From Candidatus Nomurabacteria bacterium (GTDB lineage: Bacteria > Patescibacteriota > Minisyncoccia > Phycocordibacterales > UBA9973), in contig CALQYS010000003.1 of assembly GCA_943348755.1 (NCBI GenBank), positions 2,482 to 66,481 on the forward strand: a stretch of DNA of 64,000 nt, written 5' to 3'. Positions 48,852-50,503 of this stretch are shown here, one piece after another (the first letter of the stretch is position 1; the number at the start of each line of letters is the position of its first letter). Made by a program: the position numbers and the translations under genes. The notes under the pieces are model-generated. The model was given only the letters and a program-made list of their open reading frames with translations. It was not told the DNA's origin and did not search any database.

Positions 48852-50468
48852 ATGAACTACTTTCTCTACGCACGCAAAAGCACGGATGTTGAGGATAAAC
48901 AAATCCTCTCTATTGAAGCCCAACTCGCCGAACTGCGAGAACTTGCAAAACGAGAAAATCTAAATATCGCCGAGGAGTTTGTGGAAAAACGATCCGCAAA
49001 AATTCCGGGCAGACCGATATTTAATGAAATGCTTACAAGAATTCAAAAAAGTGAAGCGCAAGGAATTGTTTGCTGGAAAATTGACCGCTTGTCTCGCAAT
49101 CCTATTGATAGCGGAAAAATTCAATGGCTTCTACAGCAAAACACTGTTAAATCAGTAATAACGATGAACCGAGAATATAAGCCCGATGATAATGCTTTAC
49201 TTTTGAGTGTGGAAAGTGGTTCAGCAAACCAATTTATTATTGATTTAAAGAAAGGGGTTAAAAGAGGAATAGAAAGCAAGATACAGAAAGGCTTAGCTCC
49301 AATTTCTGCTCCTCTTGGATACCTAAACACGAAGACAGAAATACGAGGAGAAAATTACATAATCAAAGACCCAGAAAGATTTAATCTCATAAGAAAAATT
49401 TGGGACTTGATGCTTACTGGCAAGTATACCCCTCCGAAGATTCTAGAAATCGCAAACAATGAGTGGGGTTTAAGAACAAGAAAGATGAGAAGAAAAGGGA
49501 GCAAACCTCTTGGACGAAGCACGATTTATGCCATACTGACGAACCCATTTTATACAGGGGAATTTAAATATAAAGAAGTAATCTATAGCGGAAAGCATGA
49601 GCCCATGATTACTCAAGCAGAATTTGATAAAGTTCAAATCATTCTTGGCAGAAAGGGTAAACCGAGACCGAAAACCCACTCTTTCCCTTTCACGGGAATG
49701 ATTAGATGTGGTGAGTGTGGTAGTGCAATAACCGCTATTGAAAAAACAAAAATCATAAAGAAAACTGGTGAACTAAAAACTTTTACTTATTATTACTGTA
49801 CTAAAAGAAAACTGAAGACGCAGTGTAGTCAGGAAGGCTATATAACTTCGGAAGAGTTGGATAAACAAATAGATGAGGAATTAGCAAAATATACGATACT
49901 CCCACAATTTAAAGATTGGGCTTTGGAGATACTCCAAGAAAATAATGATGTGGAAATAGAAAATAGGACTAAGATTTTTGAATCCCAGCAAAAGGCTGAG
50001 GTAGATATTCAGAAGCAAATGGATAATTTAACTAAGATGCGATACCGAGAATTAATCAACGATGCAGAATACTCTAAAGAAAAGCAAGAGCTACAGACAC
50101 AGATAGCAAAGATAAGAAAAGCTAAGATAGAAATGGAGCAAAGAATGGATAATTGGGTTGAACTCACAGAAAAGACCTTTGAGTTTGCTTGCCACGCTCG
50201 CAGTGGATTTGCTAATGGAGATACTAATACCAAAAGAGAGATATTTATGGCTCTTGGTGAGAACTACACTCTAAAATACAAAAAAGTCCTTATTCCTGTG
50301 AACGAATGCCTAAAAGTTATAGAAAAAAGGTATCCAGTGATAGAGAAAGAATACAATCGGTTAGAACTGGAAAATAAGCTTAACCCTAAACGACAAAACA
50401 CCTCTTTCGAGGTGCTTCGTCCGTTACTGCGCGATCGACCGGACTTGAACCGGCAACCTCTTCCGTGA
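48852..50468 (+). CDS. Large serine recombinase (phage-integrase/transposase type)
   Basis: The N-terminal resolvase domain carries the catalytic-Ser context YARKSTDV...SIEAQ. It is followed by a recombinase domain, a zinc ribbon (CGECGS) and a long coiled coil. The listed ORF start at 48657 is unlikely and the ATG at 48852 fits better. The last 13 codons are encoded by the 3' half of tRNA-Asp. Confidence 0.75.
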   Translation: MNYFLYARKSTDVEDKQILSIEAQLAELRELAKRENLNIAEEFVEKRSAKIPGRPIFNEMLTRIQKSEAQGIVCWKIDRLSRNPIDSGKIQWLLQQNTVKSVITMNREYKPDDNALLLSVESGSANQFIIDLKKGVKRGIESKIQKGLAPISAPLGYLNTKTEIRGENYIIKDPERFNLIRKIWDLMLTGKYTPPKILEIANNEWGLRTRKMRRKGSKPLGRSTIYAILTNPFYTGEFKYKEVIYSGKHEPMITQAEFDKVQIILGRKGKPRPKTHSFPFTGMIRCGECGSAITAIEKTKIIKKTGELKTFTYYYCTKRKLKTQCSQEGYITSEELDKQIDEELAKYTILPQFKDWALEILQENNDVEIENRTKIFESQQKAEVDIQKQMDNLTKMRYRELINDAEYSKEKQELQTQIAKIRKAKIEMEQRMDNWVELTEKTFEFACHARSGFANGDTNTKREIFMALGENYTLKYKKVLIPVNECLKVIEKRYPVIEKEYNRLELENKLNPKRQNTSFEVLRPLLRDRPDLNRQPLP

Positions 50469-50503
50469 CAGGGAAGCGCTCTAACCAGTTGAGCTACGAC
50501 CGC
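50430..50503 (-). tRNA. tRNA-Asp (anticodon GUC)
   Basis: Cloverleaf GCGGTCG / GCTC-AACTGGTT-AGAGC / CTTCC-CTGTCAC-GGAAG / GCCGG-TTCAAGT-CCGGT / CGATCGC, then G. Its 3' half overlaps the recombinase stop region. Confidence 0.65.

What the first reader, a model, noticed from the sequence alone, without database searches (positions are those of the whole stretch)
48852..50503. Large serine recombinase whose 3' end is encoded by the 3' half of tRNA-Asp: signature of an integrated element
The recombinase (catalytic Ser context YARKSTDV, zinc ribbon, coiled coil) terminates 38 nt inside tRNA-Asp(GUC). The tRNA-Asp is the first gene of a three-tRNA cluster. The arrangement is typical of integrative elements that target and reconstitute tRNA 3' ends. 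This marks about 42.5-50.5 kb as horizontally acquired (see the cassette finding at 42492-47422). I could not find a second partial tRNA-Asp copy or a flanking direct repeat. That is expected for serine recombinases, which use a 2-bp crossover.
Basis: partly seen in the sequence, partly recalled or inferred. Interest (0 to 1): 0.6.

Follow-up and report, generated by a model that had tools for sequence, protein, structure and literature searches.

The report
tRNA-end-targeting serine integrase island
An intact large serine integrase sits at the end of a ~7.9 kb defence-gene island inserted just after tRNA-Asp, and it belongs to a large, apparently undescribed family in ultrasmall (CPR) bacteria that inserts DNA, and probably small gene cassettes, at the tips of tRNA genes.

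Summary
ORF 48852-50468 (+) is a complete large serine recombinase (LSR). Its last 12 codons and stop are antisense to the 3' half of tRNA-Asp(GTC) (50429-50503, minus strand).

The overlap is a family trait. More than 5,700 homologues exist, almost all labelled CPR/Patescibacteria. In 63 of 80 related genome loci the ORF ends in or against a convergent tRNA gene, and tRNA identity follows LSR clades.

The island spans 42492-50428/9. Both junctions share CTGCG. The left junction carries a conserved arm ("P-right") that marks the far end of related elements and follows the LSR stop in unintegrated-type contigs. A relative (L089) has tRNA-Asp 70 nt from the same HAD gene, with no LSR or cargo.

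The crossover lies at TG, after the discriminator base. The tRNA is therefore untouched and nothing is "reconstituted".

Three further points:
- P-right copies the tRNA arm with a 5-nt insertion.
- The LSR's last ~50 nt hold a covarying antisense terminator for the tRNA operon.
- The P-right motif also bounds many LSR-less, mostly single-gene cassettes arrayed beside tRNA-Asp.

A perfect 183-bp inverted repeat of P-right brackets the restriction-modification cargo and is unexplained.

Verdict: a real integrated element and a new variant of a known kind.

The parts
48852..50468 (+). Large serine recombinase (integrase), 538 aa. Residues 1-526 are element-encoded. Residues 527-538 and the stop are read from host DNA, antisense to tRNA-Asp.
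   Evidence: domains, invariant residues, coiled coil. (family-wide tRNA-antisense tails).
50429..50503 (-). tRNA-Asp(GTC), intact, with no encoded CCA. It is the last gene of the Met-Met-Asp tRNA cluster. Its T arm and acceptor 3' strand form the right arm of the integration site (B-right).
   Evidence: Seventeen related loci show the identical 40-nt overlap at tRNA-Asp.
50390..50455 (+). attR junction. P-left (the LSR's 3' coding end) runs up to 50427, the shared core CTGCG is at 50427-50431 (inferred crossover TG at 50428-50429), and the tRNA arm CGATCGACCGGACTTGAACC follows.
   Evidence: The shared identity of junction pairs in four elements intersects on TGCG. Five different left arms join the same P-right exactly at TG.
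50392..50421 (-). Terminator-like hairpin antisense to the LSR coding end. On the tRNA strand it reads GGACGAAG-CACCTC-GAAA-GAGGTG-TTTTGTC and starts about 8 nt after the tRNA.
   Evidence: folds. (5 pairs with compensatory changes, 22 cells against 7.3 in shuffles, 0 of 500). (44 of 65 loci against 40 of 1300 control windows).
42470..42525 (+). attL junction. The HAD start codon (minus strand, 42488-42490) is followed by the core CTGCG at 42491-42495 and then by P-right, TGCGGGGTTATTAAACGAAGCTCGAACC.
   Evidence: The same P-right variant follows four other left arms in other genomes, including an LSR 3' end (L202).
42492..42674 (+). Arm A of a perfect 183-bp inverted repeat. It comprises P-right plus about 155 nt containing a long hairpin (42567-42610).
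   Evidence: Two independent k141 assemblies break exactly 141 nt into it (L084, L094).
47240..47422 (-). Arm B of the inverted repeat, a second inverted copy of P-right. It is joined at TG to a different arm, 'X' (47423-47626).
   Evidence: The X arm is 91% identical over 211 nt to L133, where it also lies between a P-right and an LSR module.
43149..43736 (-). Cargo: HTH protein. Together with 42492-43148 it forms a unit that is conserved in L142.
   Evidence: weak HTH hits. (58% aa identity to L142; the non-coding region is 67% identical).
43685..44380 (-). Cargo: PD-(D/E)XK / Cas4-like nuclease.
44386..47256 (-). Cargo: type IIG restriction-modification enzyme (Eco57I/MmeI-like).
   Evidence: (PADLOC REase_MTase_IIG, E = 2.4e-96, full length).
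47656..48831 (-). SEC-C-motif protein of 391 aa, divergent from the LSR. It is part of the LSR module and its function is unknown.
   Evidence: It has no homologue in related loci.
41876..42490 (-). HAD hydrolase forming the left flank. It may itself be an older cassette: a P-right remnant, TGCGTGACCTAG, lies at 41864-41875 just after its stop.
   Evidence: HAD_2 genes occur among the LSR-less cassettes. Relatives carry different arms next to this gene.

Best explanation
**What it is.** The ORF is an intact integrase of a large, CPR-specific clade of large serine recombinases. Its element attachment site (attP) lies across the last codons of its own gene. Its chromosomal target (attB) is the extreme 3' end of a tRNA gene.

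**In this window.**
- A composite island of about 7.9 kb (42492-50428/9) is inserted between a HAD hydrolase gene and tRNA-Asp.
- Its parts are an HTH protein, a Cas4-like nuclease, a type IIG restriction-modification enzyme, a SEC-C protein and the integrase.

**How the site works (inferred).**
- Strand exchange occurs at a TG dinucleotide at tRNA positions 74-75, after the discriminator base. The mature tRNA (1-73, CCA added later) is never touched and nothing needs rebuilding.
- The integrase recognises the tRNA's acceptor/T arm as the right half of attB.
- The right arm of attP (P-right) is a copy of that arm with 5 extra bases: GGAC[GAAGT]TAGAAC against GGAC-TTGAAC. This is the 5-bp zinc-ribbon-motif shift that separates attP from attB in the LI-integrase model. 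The window's own P-right variant is 1 nt shorter, giving a 4-bp shift.

**Why the ORF overlaps the tRNA.** The gene has no stop codon before the crossover. After integration it reads through attR into the antisense tRNA until the first stop, adding 12 host-encoded, disordered residues here. In the free form it would end ...LRGY*.

**The built-in terminator.** The last ~50 nt of the gene also encode, on the opposite strand, a hairpin plus T-tract. This most likely terminates the tRNA operon and shields the integrase gene from antisense read-through.

**Shown:** domains, the overlap, its family-wide recurrence, junction sequences, the cargo-free relative, and hairpin covariation.

**Inferred:** the exact dinucleotide, protein-DNA contacts, terminator activity, and present-day mobility.
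For: **The protein**
- Domains, catalytic residues and coiled coil are present.
- There are 5,708 homologues with E <= 1e-10. Most end in x-[DEG]-[LS]-N tails, the antisense translation of a T arm.

**Family-wide overlap**
- 63 of 80 genome loci have the ORF stop in or beside a convergent tRNA: His 22, Asp 17, Gln 7, Trp 4, Asn 4, Ser 4, others 5.
- tRNA type follows LSR clades in a neighbour-joining tree.

**Junctions**
- The shared core is CTGCG.
- P-right lies at the far end of elements of 5.5-11.5 kb.
- attP-type joints (P-left|TG|P-right) occur in L055, L081, L095, L097 and L202.
- Homology to the window's P-right starts exactly at TG after five different left arms.
- The proximal bases of P-right co-vary with the target tRNA (Trp TGGCAGG, Gln GCTG).

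**Site model:** the 5-bp shift rule is taken from PMC3783163.

**Comparison with relatives**
- L089 and L090 have tRNA-Asp, 70 nt, then the HAD gene, with GatCA synteny and no LSR.
- Cargo is unrelated between elements, while the right flank is syntenic.
- Relatives carry Prim-Pol or Toprim replication genes.

**Terminator:**

**Tail is dispensable:** several ORFs stop at the junction itself, and the tail has pLDDT below 50.
Against: - No excised circle or pristine empty site of this exact strain was found. Look-ups for the identical HAD protein gave only contigs that break at the repeat.
- L089's 70-nt spacer contains a P-right-like 20-mer, so that site is scarred rather than virgin.
- P-left is not a good inverted copy of P-right. 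GTCC lies 5-6 nt from TG on the left, whereas GGAC lies 11 nt from TG on the right. The half-site model is therefore incomplete.
- The dyad centre of GTCC-N18-GGAC falls on GC, not TG.
- The window's P-right is 1 nt shorter than the common variant, giving a shift of 4 rather than 5.
- No excision factor was identified.
- The island is rearranged (183-bp inverted repeat) and lacks the replication genes seen in relatives, so it may no longer move.
- The attP-type contigs are neither circular nor shown to be free.
Confidence: 0.85

Rival explanations
1. Integron-like platform. The tRNA-Asp 3' end acts as a cassette acceptor site. The LSR, in cis or from a visiting element, inserts and excises small non-autonomous gene cassettes, each carrying a P-right arm and a terminator-bearing left arm. 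On this reading the window's island is an LSR module plus captured cassettes, not one unitary element. This extends the best explanation and does not contradict it.
For: - A metagenome scan for the P-right motif gave at least 120 stretches and 127 distinct sites.
- Of 83 bounded units, 80 lack an LSR. They measure 315-7274 nt, median about 870 nt.
- Of 73 units under 2.5 kb, 53 have all their ORFs co-oriented with tRNA-Asp against 8 all-opposite (p = 3e-9).
- Arrays of up to four units end at tRNA-Asp (L163, L147, L150, L177).
- Content is very diverse: 102 of 143 ORFs are singletons and 84 Pfam families occur in 100 proteins, including NUDIX, GNAT, toxins, HAD and Peptidase_S51.
- The same arm types occur next to the tRNA and next to P-right.
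- L179 and L140 differ by unrelated content bounded exactly by P-right and tRNA-Asp.
- The same P-right unit follows different cassettes in L142 and L129.
- L055 has a 4.1-kb LSR-less cassette between an LSR with an intact attP-type joint and the tRNA.
Against: - The 25 nt to the left of TG are not conserved among cassettes and do not resemble an LSR half-site. LSR sites normally need two bound half-sites.
- Repeated integration followed by deletion (a ratchet) could leave similar arrays without any cassette mobility.
- No circular cassette was observed.
- Most arrays have no LSR on the contig.
- The units were found by searching for the motif, so the sample is biased.
Confidence: 0.4
2. Fixed relic. 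The element integrated as described but is now immobile. The LSR gene persists by chance or for another role, and the island is a rearranged remnant.
For: - A perfect 183-bp inverted duplication of P-right lies inside the island.
- The HAD start codon abuts the junction, with the 37-70 nt spacer seen in relatives missing.
- There are no replication genes and no recognisable excision factor.
- No attB or attP contig of this strain was found.
Against: - The LSR keeps every invariant family residue and is full length.
- Its P-right variant is used in other genomes, including an attP-type joint.
- The repeat is 100% identical, which implies a recent event.
Confidence: 0.25
3. The LSR works here mainly as an invertase. 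It would flip the segment between the inverted P-right copies (42492-47422), or flip its own module between site B and attR, as a switch for the restriction-modification operon.
For: - The inverted-repeat arms begin exactly at the TG crossover and include the P-right half-site.
- Inverting 47423-50428 between site B and attR would create a canonical P-left|TG|P-right joint and an X|TG|tRNA joint (inference).
- L133 shares the architecture rc(P-right)-X-genes-LSR.
Against: - No other of about 200 loci has such a repeat at P-right.
- Both copies are 'left-arm|TG|P-right' sites, a pairing that LSRs do not normally recombine.
- No alternative orientation was seen, although assemblies cannot resolve a 183-bp repeat.
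- The family-wide signal is integration at tRNAs.
Confidence: 0.08
4. Classical tRNA-reconstituting island. The element carries a copy of the tRNA 3' part and restores the gene after inserting inside it.
For: The integrase is adjacent to a tRNA gene and the ORF overlaps its 3' half.
Against: - There is no second tRNA-Asp fragment anywhere in the window.
- Only 5 bp are shared between the junctions.
- The exchange point is after the discriminator base.
- The enzyme is a serine, not a tyrosine, recombinase.
Confidence: 0.03
5. Chance or annotation artefact. An unrelated recombinase gene happens to run into a tRNA gene because no stop codon intervenes.
For: The tail is short, disordered and variable.
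Against: - 63 of 80 loci show the same geometry with 10 or more tRNA types.
- The junction motifs are conserved.
Confidence: 0.01

Closest known systems
Phage and element large serine integrases (A118/LI, SPbeta SprA, Bxb1, phiC31)
   Same: - Same domain order: catalytic domain, recombinase domain, zinc ribbon with a coiled coil.
- Distant sequence matches to A118 integrase and SPbeta YokA/SprA structures, E about 1e-8 to 1e-9.
- Short shared core at the junctions.
- The attP arm carries the distal motif 5 bp further out than the attB arm, as in the LI-integrase model.
   Different: - Known LSRs target protein-coding genes or intergenic sites. This family targets the 3' tip of tRNA genes, with clade-specific tRNA identity.
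- attP lies inside the integrase's own last codons, so integration changes the protein's C-terminus.
- The left arm of attP is not a clear inverted copy of the right arm.
SCCmec/SCC elements and Ccr recombinases
   Same: - LSRs insert at the extreme 3' end of a conserved housekeeping gene (rlmH/orfX) without inactivating it (general knowledge).
- Elements and recombinase-less remnants build up in tandem at the site (general knowledge).
- NCBIfam CcrB, CcrC and CcrA models give weak hits.
   Different: - The scores are far below the family cut-offs (83 against 900 bits), so this is not a Ccr.
- The target is a tRNA, not rlmH.
- There is one recombinase, not a CcrAB pair.
- The cassettes here are mostly single genes of 0.3-1.5 kb.
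Tyrosine-integrase genomic islands at tRNA genes (P4/lambda-type; Islander/TIGER islands; tycheposons)
   Same: - A tRNA gene serves as a conserved landing pad.
- The integrase gene is next to the tRNA.
- Cargo is variable, including defence genes.
- Elements accrete in tandem, and satellites lack an integrase.
   Different: - The chemistry is different (serine, not tyrosine).
- There is no duplicated tRNA segment.
- The crossover lies outside the mature tRNA.
- In the searched papers tRNA sites are reported for tyrosine integrases only. In tycheposons 910 of 937 elements use tyrosine recombinases.
Integrons (IntI, attI, attC cassettes; CALIN arrays)
   Same: - Arrays of small, mostly single-gene, co-oriented and functionally diverse cassettes at one fixed acceptor site.
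- Many arrays have no recombinase nearby, as in CALINs.
- The gene types are similar: toxins, GNAT, NUDIX.
   Different: - The candidate recombinase is an LSR, not a tyrosine recombinase.
- Sites are double-strand-type arms, not folded attC hairpins.
- The acceptor is a tRNA 3' end.
- Each cassette carries a terminator-like hairpin.
- Cassette mobility is not demonstrated.
att site inside a gene: SSV-type archaeal integrases; integration-dependent immunity of mycobacteriophage BPs
   Same: attP overlaps a coding sequence of the element, so integration changes the gene product. This comparison is from memory, apart from PMC8371274, which appeared in a search and was not read.
   Different: - Here only the last few codons are exchanged, and several family members stop at the junction itself.
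- A regulatory role for the tail swap is therefore unsupported.

Membership tests
Large serine recombinase (serine integrase) superfamily | N-terminal resolvase-type catalytic domain with a nucleophilic serine | tested here: met
   Pfam Resolvase, residues 4-147, E = 1.5e-18. R8 and S10 are invariant across 30 relatives.
Large serine recombinase (serine integrase) superfamily | Recombinase domain followed by a zinc-ribbon domain with four Cys | tested here: met
   PF07508 (178-265) and PF13408 (279-344). C286, C289, C316 and C325 are invariant.
Large serine recombinase (serine integrase) superfamily | Coiled-coil motif inserted after the zinc ribbon | tested here: met
   The AF2 model has two long antiparallel helices, 351-398 and 404-455, with pLDDT about 80-89.
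Large serine recombinase (serine integrase) superfamily | Short attP and attB sites sharing only a few bp around a 2-bp crossover; the distal (ZD) motif shifted 5 bp between attP and attB arms | tested here: inconclusive
   - The shared core is CTGCG, or TGCG across four elements.
- P-right equals the tRNA arm plus 5 nt in the common variant.
- However, the shift is 4 nt in the window's variant, and the left arms do not mirror the right arms.
Large serine recombinase (serine integrase) superfamily | Catalysis of unidirectional attP x attB recombination, reversed by a directionality factor | not testable with these tools
XisF / CcrA / CcrB / CcrC equivalogs (NCBIfam) | Score above the curated family cut-off | tested here: not met
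   XisF scores 106 bits against a cut-off of 375. CcrB scores 83 against 900. The protein belongs to a separate LSR subfamily.
Integrated genomic island | Presence/absence polymorphism between relatives at the same chromosomal site | tested here: met
   - L089 and L090 have tRNA-Asp, 70 nt, then HAD, with GatCA/tRNA-Met synteny and no LSR or cargo.
- L082 has a different element at the same HAD flank.
Integrated genomic island | Defined junctions carrying the recombinase's sites | tested here: met
   attL is at 42491/2 and attR at 50428/9. P-right and P-left arms recur in related elements and are joined together in attP-type contigs.
tRNA-reconstituting (tyrosine-type) island | The element carries a copy of the tRNA 3' segment, leaving a displaced partial tRNA at the distal end | tested here: not met
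   No second match to the tRNA-Asp 3' 22-mer was found with up to 3 mismatches. No tRNA lies at 42.4-43.2 kb.
Integron | IntI-type tyrosine recombinase with attI and folded attC sites | tested here: not met
   The only recombinase is an LSR, and the cassette boundaries carry a 27-nt linear motif rather than attC. The resemblance is functional only.

The most novel reading that the evidence does not exclude
CPR/Patescibacteria may carry an integron-like gene-capture system built on a serine integrase.
- The 3' tip of a tRNA gene is the acceptor site. tRNA-Asp is used here, and His, Gln, Trp, Asn and Ser in sister clades.
- Autonomous LSR modules supply the enzyme.
- Hundreds of small non-autonomous cassettes are stacked next to the tRNA and exchanged there. 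Each has one gene, a P-right arm that mimics the tRNA arm, and a terminator-bearing left arm.
- On this reading the window's island is an LSR module plus captured defence cassettes.
Probability: 0.35. Interest if true: 0.85.

Novelty: new variant of a known kind. Interest (0 to 1): 0.66.

Why it matters
- **A gap in what is reported.** tRNA genes are the classic landing pads of tyrosine integrases, while serine integrases are known for protein-gene or intergenic targets. A family of thousands of serine integrases that has specialised on tRNA tips would fill that gap. Its target identity tracks its phylogeny, and its attP arm imitates the tRNA arm with the predicted 5-bp offset. It would also be a natural test of the structural model for how these enzymes tell attP from attB.
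- **Genome plasticity in CPR bacteria.** These organisms have tiny genomes and few recognised mobile elements. A tRNA-anchored island and cassette system carrying defence genes, toxins and small enzymes would be a major route of gene flow for them.
- **Genome engineering.** Integrases that recognise conserved tRNA ends without damaging the tRNA, and that bring their own terminator, could serve as ready-made landing-pad tools.

Tried and rejected
- **Tails ending '...LRG' as the excised form.** Rejected: in loci such as L002, L011 and L024 these are stops inside the tRNA acceptor stem.
- **Symmetry scan of the reconstructed attP and attB from the window alone.** Scores were no better than for the other junctions, so I relied on comparisons instead.
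- **The tool's terminator scan.** It missed the hairpin because it extends the stem into the T-tract. I replaced it with folding, covariation counts and my own scan with controls.
- **Window arm X as the native tRNA-Asp/HAD spacer.** Alignment to L089 and L082 was not significant (p = 0.36 and 0.98).
- **A second P-right-like remnant at 47525-47536.** The match is at chance level.
- **Viral origin.** IMG/VR holds only two distant relatives, at 35% and 23% identity.
- **Circularity of attP-type contigs L081, L095 and L097.** No terminal overlaps and no tRNA were found.
- **Rfam on 41.5-51 kb.** Only the five tRNAs matched.
- **Empty site of the same strain.** Exact HAD look-ups returned only contigs that break at the repeat.
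- **HAD relatives L085-L088.** They have no tRNA-Asp nearby and are uninformative.
- **Literature.** Nine searches found no description of serine integrases targeting tRNA 3' ends or of such cassette arrays. Subscription-only papers were not searchable.
- **Origin of the 183-bp inverted repeat.** I considered several rearrangement scenarios and none accounts for all junctions.
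Full report
**1. The observation**

ORF 48852-50468 on the + strand encodes 538 aa.
- Pfam finds Resolvase (4-147), Recombinase (178-265) and Zn_ribbon_recom (279-344).
- In an alignment with 29 relatives, R8, S10 and the four zinc-ribbon cysteines fall in invariant columns.
- An AlphaFold2 model built on that alignment shows the three domains and two long antiparallel helices (351-398, 404-455), the coiled coil typical of large serine recombinases (LSRs). The last ten residues are predicted disordered.

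tRNA-Asp(GTC) occupies 50429-50503 on the minus strand. The two genes therefore converge. The ORF's last 12 codons (RDRPDLNRQPLP) and its stop are the antisense reading of the tRNA's T arm and acceptor 3' strand.

tRNA-Asp is the last gene of the minus-strand Met-Met-Asp cluster, not the first.

**2. The overlap is a family trait**

The protein has 5,708 homologues with E <= 1e-10. The named ones come from Parcubacteria, Patescibacteria and other CPR groups, and the nearest is 86% identical. Their C-termini fall into three groups:
- Most end in x-[DEG]-[LS]-N-x-x-P, which is what the antisense of a tRNA T loop encodes.
- About a third stop within a few residues of a conserved LRG/WGG motif.
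- About 5% continue as ...V-[RG]-T...

I fetched 80 related loci from species-representative genomes.
- In 63 of them the ORF stop lies in or next to a convergent tRNA gene: His 22, Asp 17, Gln 7, Trp 4, Asn 4, Ser 4, others 5.
- Most of the remaining loci still have tRNA-like tails or end at a contig edge.
- In a neighbour-joining tree the tRNA type follows the LSR clades. The window's protein sits in an all-Asp clade.

**3. The two ends of the island**

At 42491-42495, one base after the HAD start codon, and at 50427-50431, at the tRNA's 3' end, the sequence is CTGCG.

Right of the left copy lies TGCGGGGTTATTAAACGAAGCTCGAACC, which I call P-right. A related motif, GCGCGACTTAGTGRACGAAGTTAGAACTG, has two positions:
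- It lies 5.5-11.5 kb upstream of the LSR in ten related elements, always on the LSR strand.
- It directly follows the LSR's last codons in contigs with the ...V-R-T tails (L055, L081, L095, L097). Those tails are simply P-right being translated.

The window's own P-right variant occurs in four other contexts in other genomes, and homology begins exactly at TG each time:
- after an LSR 3' end (L202);
- after two kinds of LSR-less arm (L142, L129);
- after the window's arm X.

The identity shared between attL and attR differs by element:

| Element | Shared identity |
|---|---|
| Window | CTGCG |
| L008 | TTGCGC |
| L011 | TGCGCGA |
| L035 | CTTAATGCGC |

The common part is TGCG. TG is the only non-palindromic dinucleotide in it, and LSRs need an asymmetric centre to keep polarity (general knowledge). 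Polarity is kept here, since the LSR always faces the tRNA. I therefore infer exchange at TG, tRNA positions 74-75.

The tRNA gene encodes no CCA, so the mature tRNA is untouched. There is no displaced tRNA fragment. Residues 1-526 are element-encoded, and in the free form the protein would end ...LRPLLRGY*.

**4. Evidence that the segment is acquired**

- The right flank (tRNA-Met x2, a 210-aa ORF, GatA, GatC) is syntenic in eight related loci. The four cargo proteins have no homologue in any of the 80.
- Homologues of the left-flank HAD gene led to L089 and L090 (GCA_040384245.1; 74% aa identity). There the order is GatC-GatA-ORF-tRNA-Met-tRNA-Met-tRNA-Asp, then 70 nt, then HAD, with no LSR or cargo.
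- That spacer contains a 20-mer resembling the distal part of P-right (17 of 20, p about 0.007). The site is cargo-free but scarred.
- In L082 and L083 (HAD 85%) a different element's P-right lies 37 nt from the HAD start.
- Related elements carry Prim-Pol or Toprim proteins, a DUF5659 protein, copper ATPases or helicase-nucleases. This is the make-up of small integrative replicons.

The window's cargo is a type IIG restriction-modification enzyme (PADLOC E = 2.4e-96), a Cas4-like nuclease, an HTH protein and a SEC-C-motif protein.

**5. How the site is probably read**

- In the common variant, counting from TG, both P-right and the tRNA arm have GGAC at +12 to +15.
- GAAC follows at +18 to +21 in the tRNA arm and at +23 to +26 in P-right: GGAC-TT-GAAC against GGAC-GAAGTTA-GAAC.
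- This is the 5-bp outward shift of the zinc-ribbon motif that separates attP from attB half-sites in the LI-integrase structure paper (PMC3783163).
- The window's variant is one base shorter, so its shift is 4.
- In the Trp and Gln clades the first bases of P-right change together with the tRNA's 3' end.

The left arms do not fit the model as neatly. The LSR's own 3' end has GTCC only 5-6 nt from TG, and chromosomal left flanks are AT-rich and unconserved. The half-site model is therefore only partly verified.

**6. A terminator hidden in the coding sequence**

On the tRNA strand, the window has GGACGAAG-CACCTC-GAAA-GAGGTG-TTTTGTC starting 8-10 nt after the tRNA.
- Relatives keep the hairpin with different stems (GAGACGC/GCGTCTC, GGAGGC/GCCTCC, GGCGGC/GCCGCC). 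The peptide there switches between TSFEV and EAFAS accordingly.
- On a 16-sequence alignment, five pairs show compensatory changes: 22 cells against 7.3 in shuffles, 0 of 500 shuffles as high, and all slid controls far lower.
- A hairpin plus T-tract is found within 60 nt of the tRNA in 44 of 65 loci, against 40 of 1300 control windows inside the same genes.

I infer that the element supplies a terminator for the tRNA operon, which also protects the LSR gene from antisense transcription. That function is not shown.

**7. LSR-less cassettes**

T precedes GCGCG in at least 80% of them.

*Unit sizes and orientation*
- Of 83 non-redundant units bounded by P-right and either the next P-right or tRNA-Asp, 80 contain no LSR. 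They measure 315-7274 nt, median about 870 nt. Three are 11-kb LSR elements.
- Among the 73 units under 2.5 kb, 37 have one ORF, 12 have two and 4 have three, all on the tRNA-Asp strand. Eight have only opposite-strand ORFs (p = 3e-9).
- Arrays of up to four units end at tRNA-Asp and often begin near tRNA-Thr, the same neighbourhood as in the window.

*Gene content.* The genes are very diverse: 102 of 143 are singletons. They include NUDIX, GNAT, Peptidase_S51, GIY-YIG, Zeta, YafQ and ParE toxins, HAD, MFS and others.

*Unit ends and exchange*
- Each unit ends in one of a few arm types that carry a hairpin. The same arm types are found joined to the tRNA and joined to a P-right.
- L179 and L140 are 79% identical in both flanks but hold unrelated DNA (0.58 against 3.07 kb) exactly between a P-right and tRNA-Asp.
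- L055 has an LSR with an intact attP-type joint, then a 4.1-kb SIS/PfkB/HAD unit, then a 79-nt copy of the LSR's 3' end fused to tRNA-Asp.

These data fit either mobile cassettes served by the LSR or repeated integration followed by deletion. I cannot separate the two.

The window's HAD gene may itself be such a unit, because TGCGTGACCTAG follows its stop.

**8. What remains unexplained in the window**

- Positions 42492-42674 and 47240-47422 are a 183-bp, 100% inverted repeat whose outer ends are TG plus P-right.
- Two independent k = 141 assemblies end exactly 141 nt into it, so the repeat boundary is real.
- The second copy is joined to a 200-nt arm, X, that is 91% identical to L133. There it also lies between a P-right and an LSR module.
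- The A-side unit (P-right, a 470-nt GC-rich spacer, HTH) is conserved in L142.
- Inverting the LSR module between site B and attR would create a canonical attP-type joint. I have no evidence that this happens.
- No other locus has such a repeat.

**9. Comparison with known systems and novelty**

- The protein is a bona fide LSR but belongs to none of the curated subfamilies. XisF and Ccr models score far below their cut-offs, and matches to A118 and SPbeta integrase structures have E about 1e-8 to 1e-9.
- In function it resembles three things: tRNA-targeting tyrosine-integrase islands in its choice of site; SCC/Ccr in inserting at the 3' end of a housekeeping gene and building tandem arrays; and integrons in the cassette arrays.
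- The papers I could search report tRNA sites for tyrosine integrases and protein-gene sites for serine recombinases. The large LSR survey PMC10083194 does not contain the word tRNA.
- Nine searches found no description of this family or of the arrays. I cannot exclude work in journals outside the library.

I rate the finding a new variant of a known kind. The integrated element itself is well supported. The integron-like reading is the most novel one still open.

Noticed in passing
window 42492-42674 and 47240-47422: A perfect 183-bp inverted repeat brackets the HTH, Cas4-like nuclease and type IIG RM genes. Both outer ends start with TG plus the P-right recombination arm. Its origin and function are unresolved.
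   Followed up: partly
window 47423-47626: A non-coding 'X' arm contains a hairpin (CGCTTCGC...GCGAAGCG). It is 91% identical over 211 nt to L133, where it also separates a P-right from an LSR module. A 50-nt sub-motif (GGTTCGAGCCGAAGATTTTTTGGAGGG...) recurs in L024, L108, L140, L192, L203 and L211 in both orientations.
   Followed up: partly
window 42675-43148: A 470-nt GC-rich non-coding stretch has internal palindromes (42796-42818 / 42820-42842). It is 67% conserved in L142 upstream of an HTH homologue and has no Rfam match. It could be an unknown RNA or a regulatory region.
   Followed up: partly
window 41864-41875 and 41876-42490: The HAD hydrolase gene is followed immediately by TGCGTGACCTAG, which matches the first 12 nt of P-right with one mismatch. 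This chromosomal flank may be an old cassette.
   Followed up: partly
L091 4297-4330 and 4586-4617: In this relative the two halves of tRNA-Asp are separated by about 255 nt, next to a faint LAGLIDADG-like ORF (3706-4314), and ARAGORN calls no tRNA-Asp. This may be an intron-containing or disrupted tRNA.
   Followed up: no
L055 93-5988: The order is an LSR with an intact attP-type joint, then SIS, PfkB-kinase and HAD-fusion genes, then a 79-nt duplicate of the LSR 3' end fused to tRNA-Asp. This is a tandem arrangement with an LSR-less 4.1-kb unit.
   Followed up: yes
L035 against window 39-54 kb: The block [element + tRNA-Asp-Met-Met] is inverted relative to the flanks GatC/GatA/ORF210 and tRNA-Thr-Thr-RF-ORF222-ORF324 between the two genomes.
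   Followed up: no
L060 10001-11647: An LSR of the His clade has a P-right-type tail (…VVRTAIANM…) inside a 759-kb contig, with no tRNA within 10 kb. This is an attP-like joint inside a chromosome-sized contig and is unexplained.
   Followed up: no
L108 1559-3120 and L140 3756-5314: A more distant LSR (about 40% identity) lies next to a convergent tRNA-Thr at the other end of the cassette region. This suggests a Thr-targeting clade.
   Followed up: no
L089, L172, L106 left arms (e.g. L089 7931-8000): On the cassette-gene strand, the class I' arms read terminator hairpin, TTTTCAGTTCTAAC, then TGGTATACT a few nt before the ATG. This looks like an extended -10 promoter, so each cassette may be an insulated expression unit. 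Seen by eye only.
   Followed up: no
window 40765-41664: The release-factor gene (PCRF and RF-1 domains) is called from a TTG start at only 299 aa, with the PCRF match starting at profile position 95. This may be a prfB-type frameshift or a mis-called start.
   Followed up: no
window 50429-50811: tRNA-Asp encodes no 3' CCA. In the Trp and Gln clades the junction core includes TGG, the antisense of an encoded CCA.
   Followed up: partly
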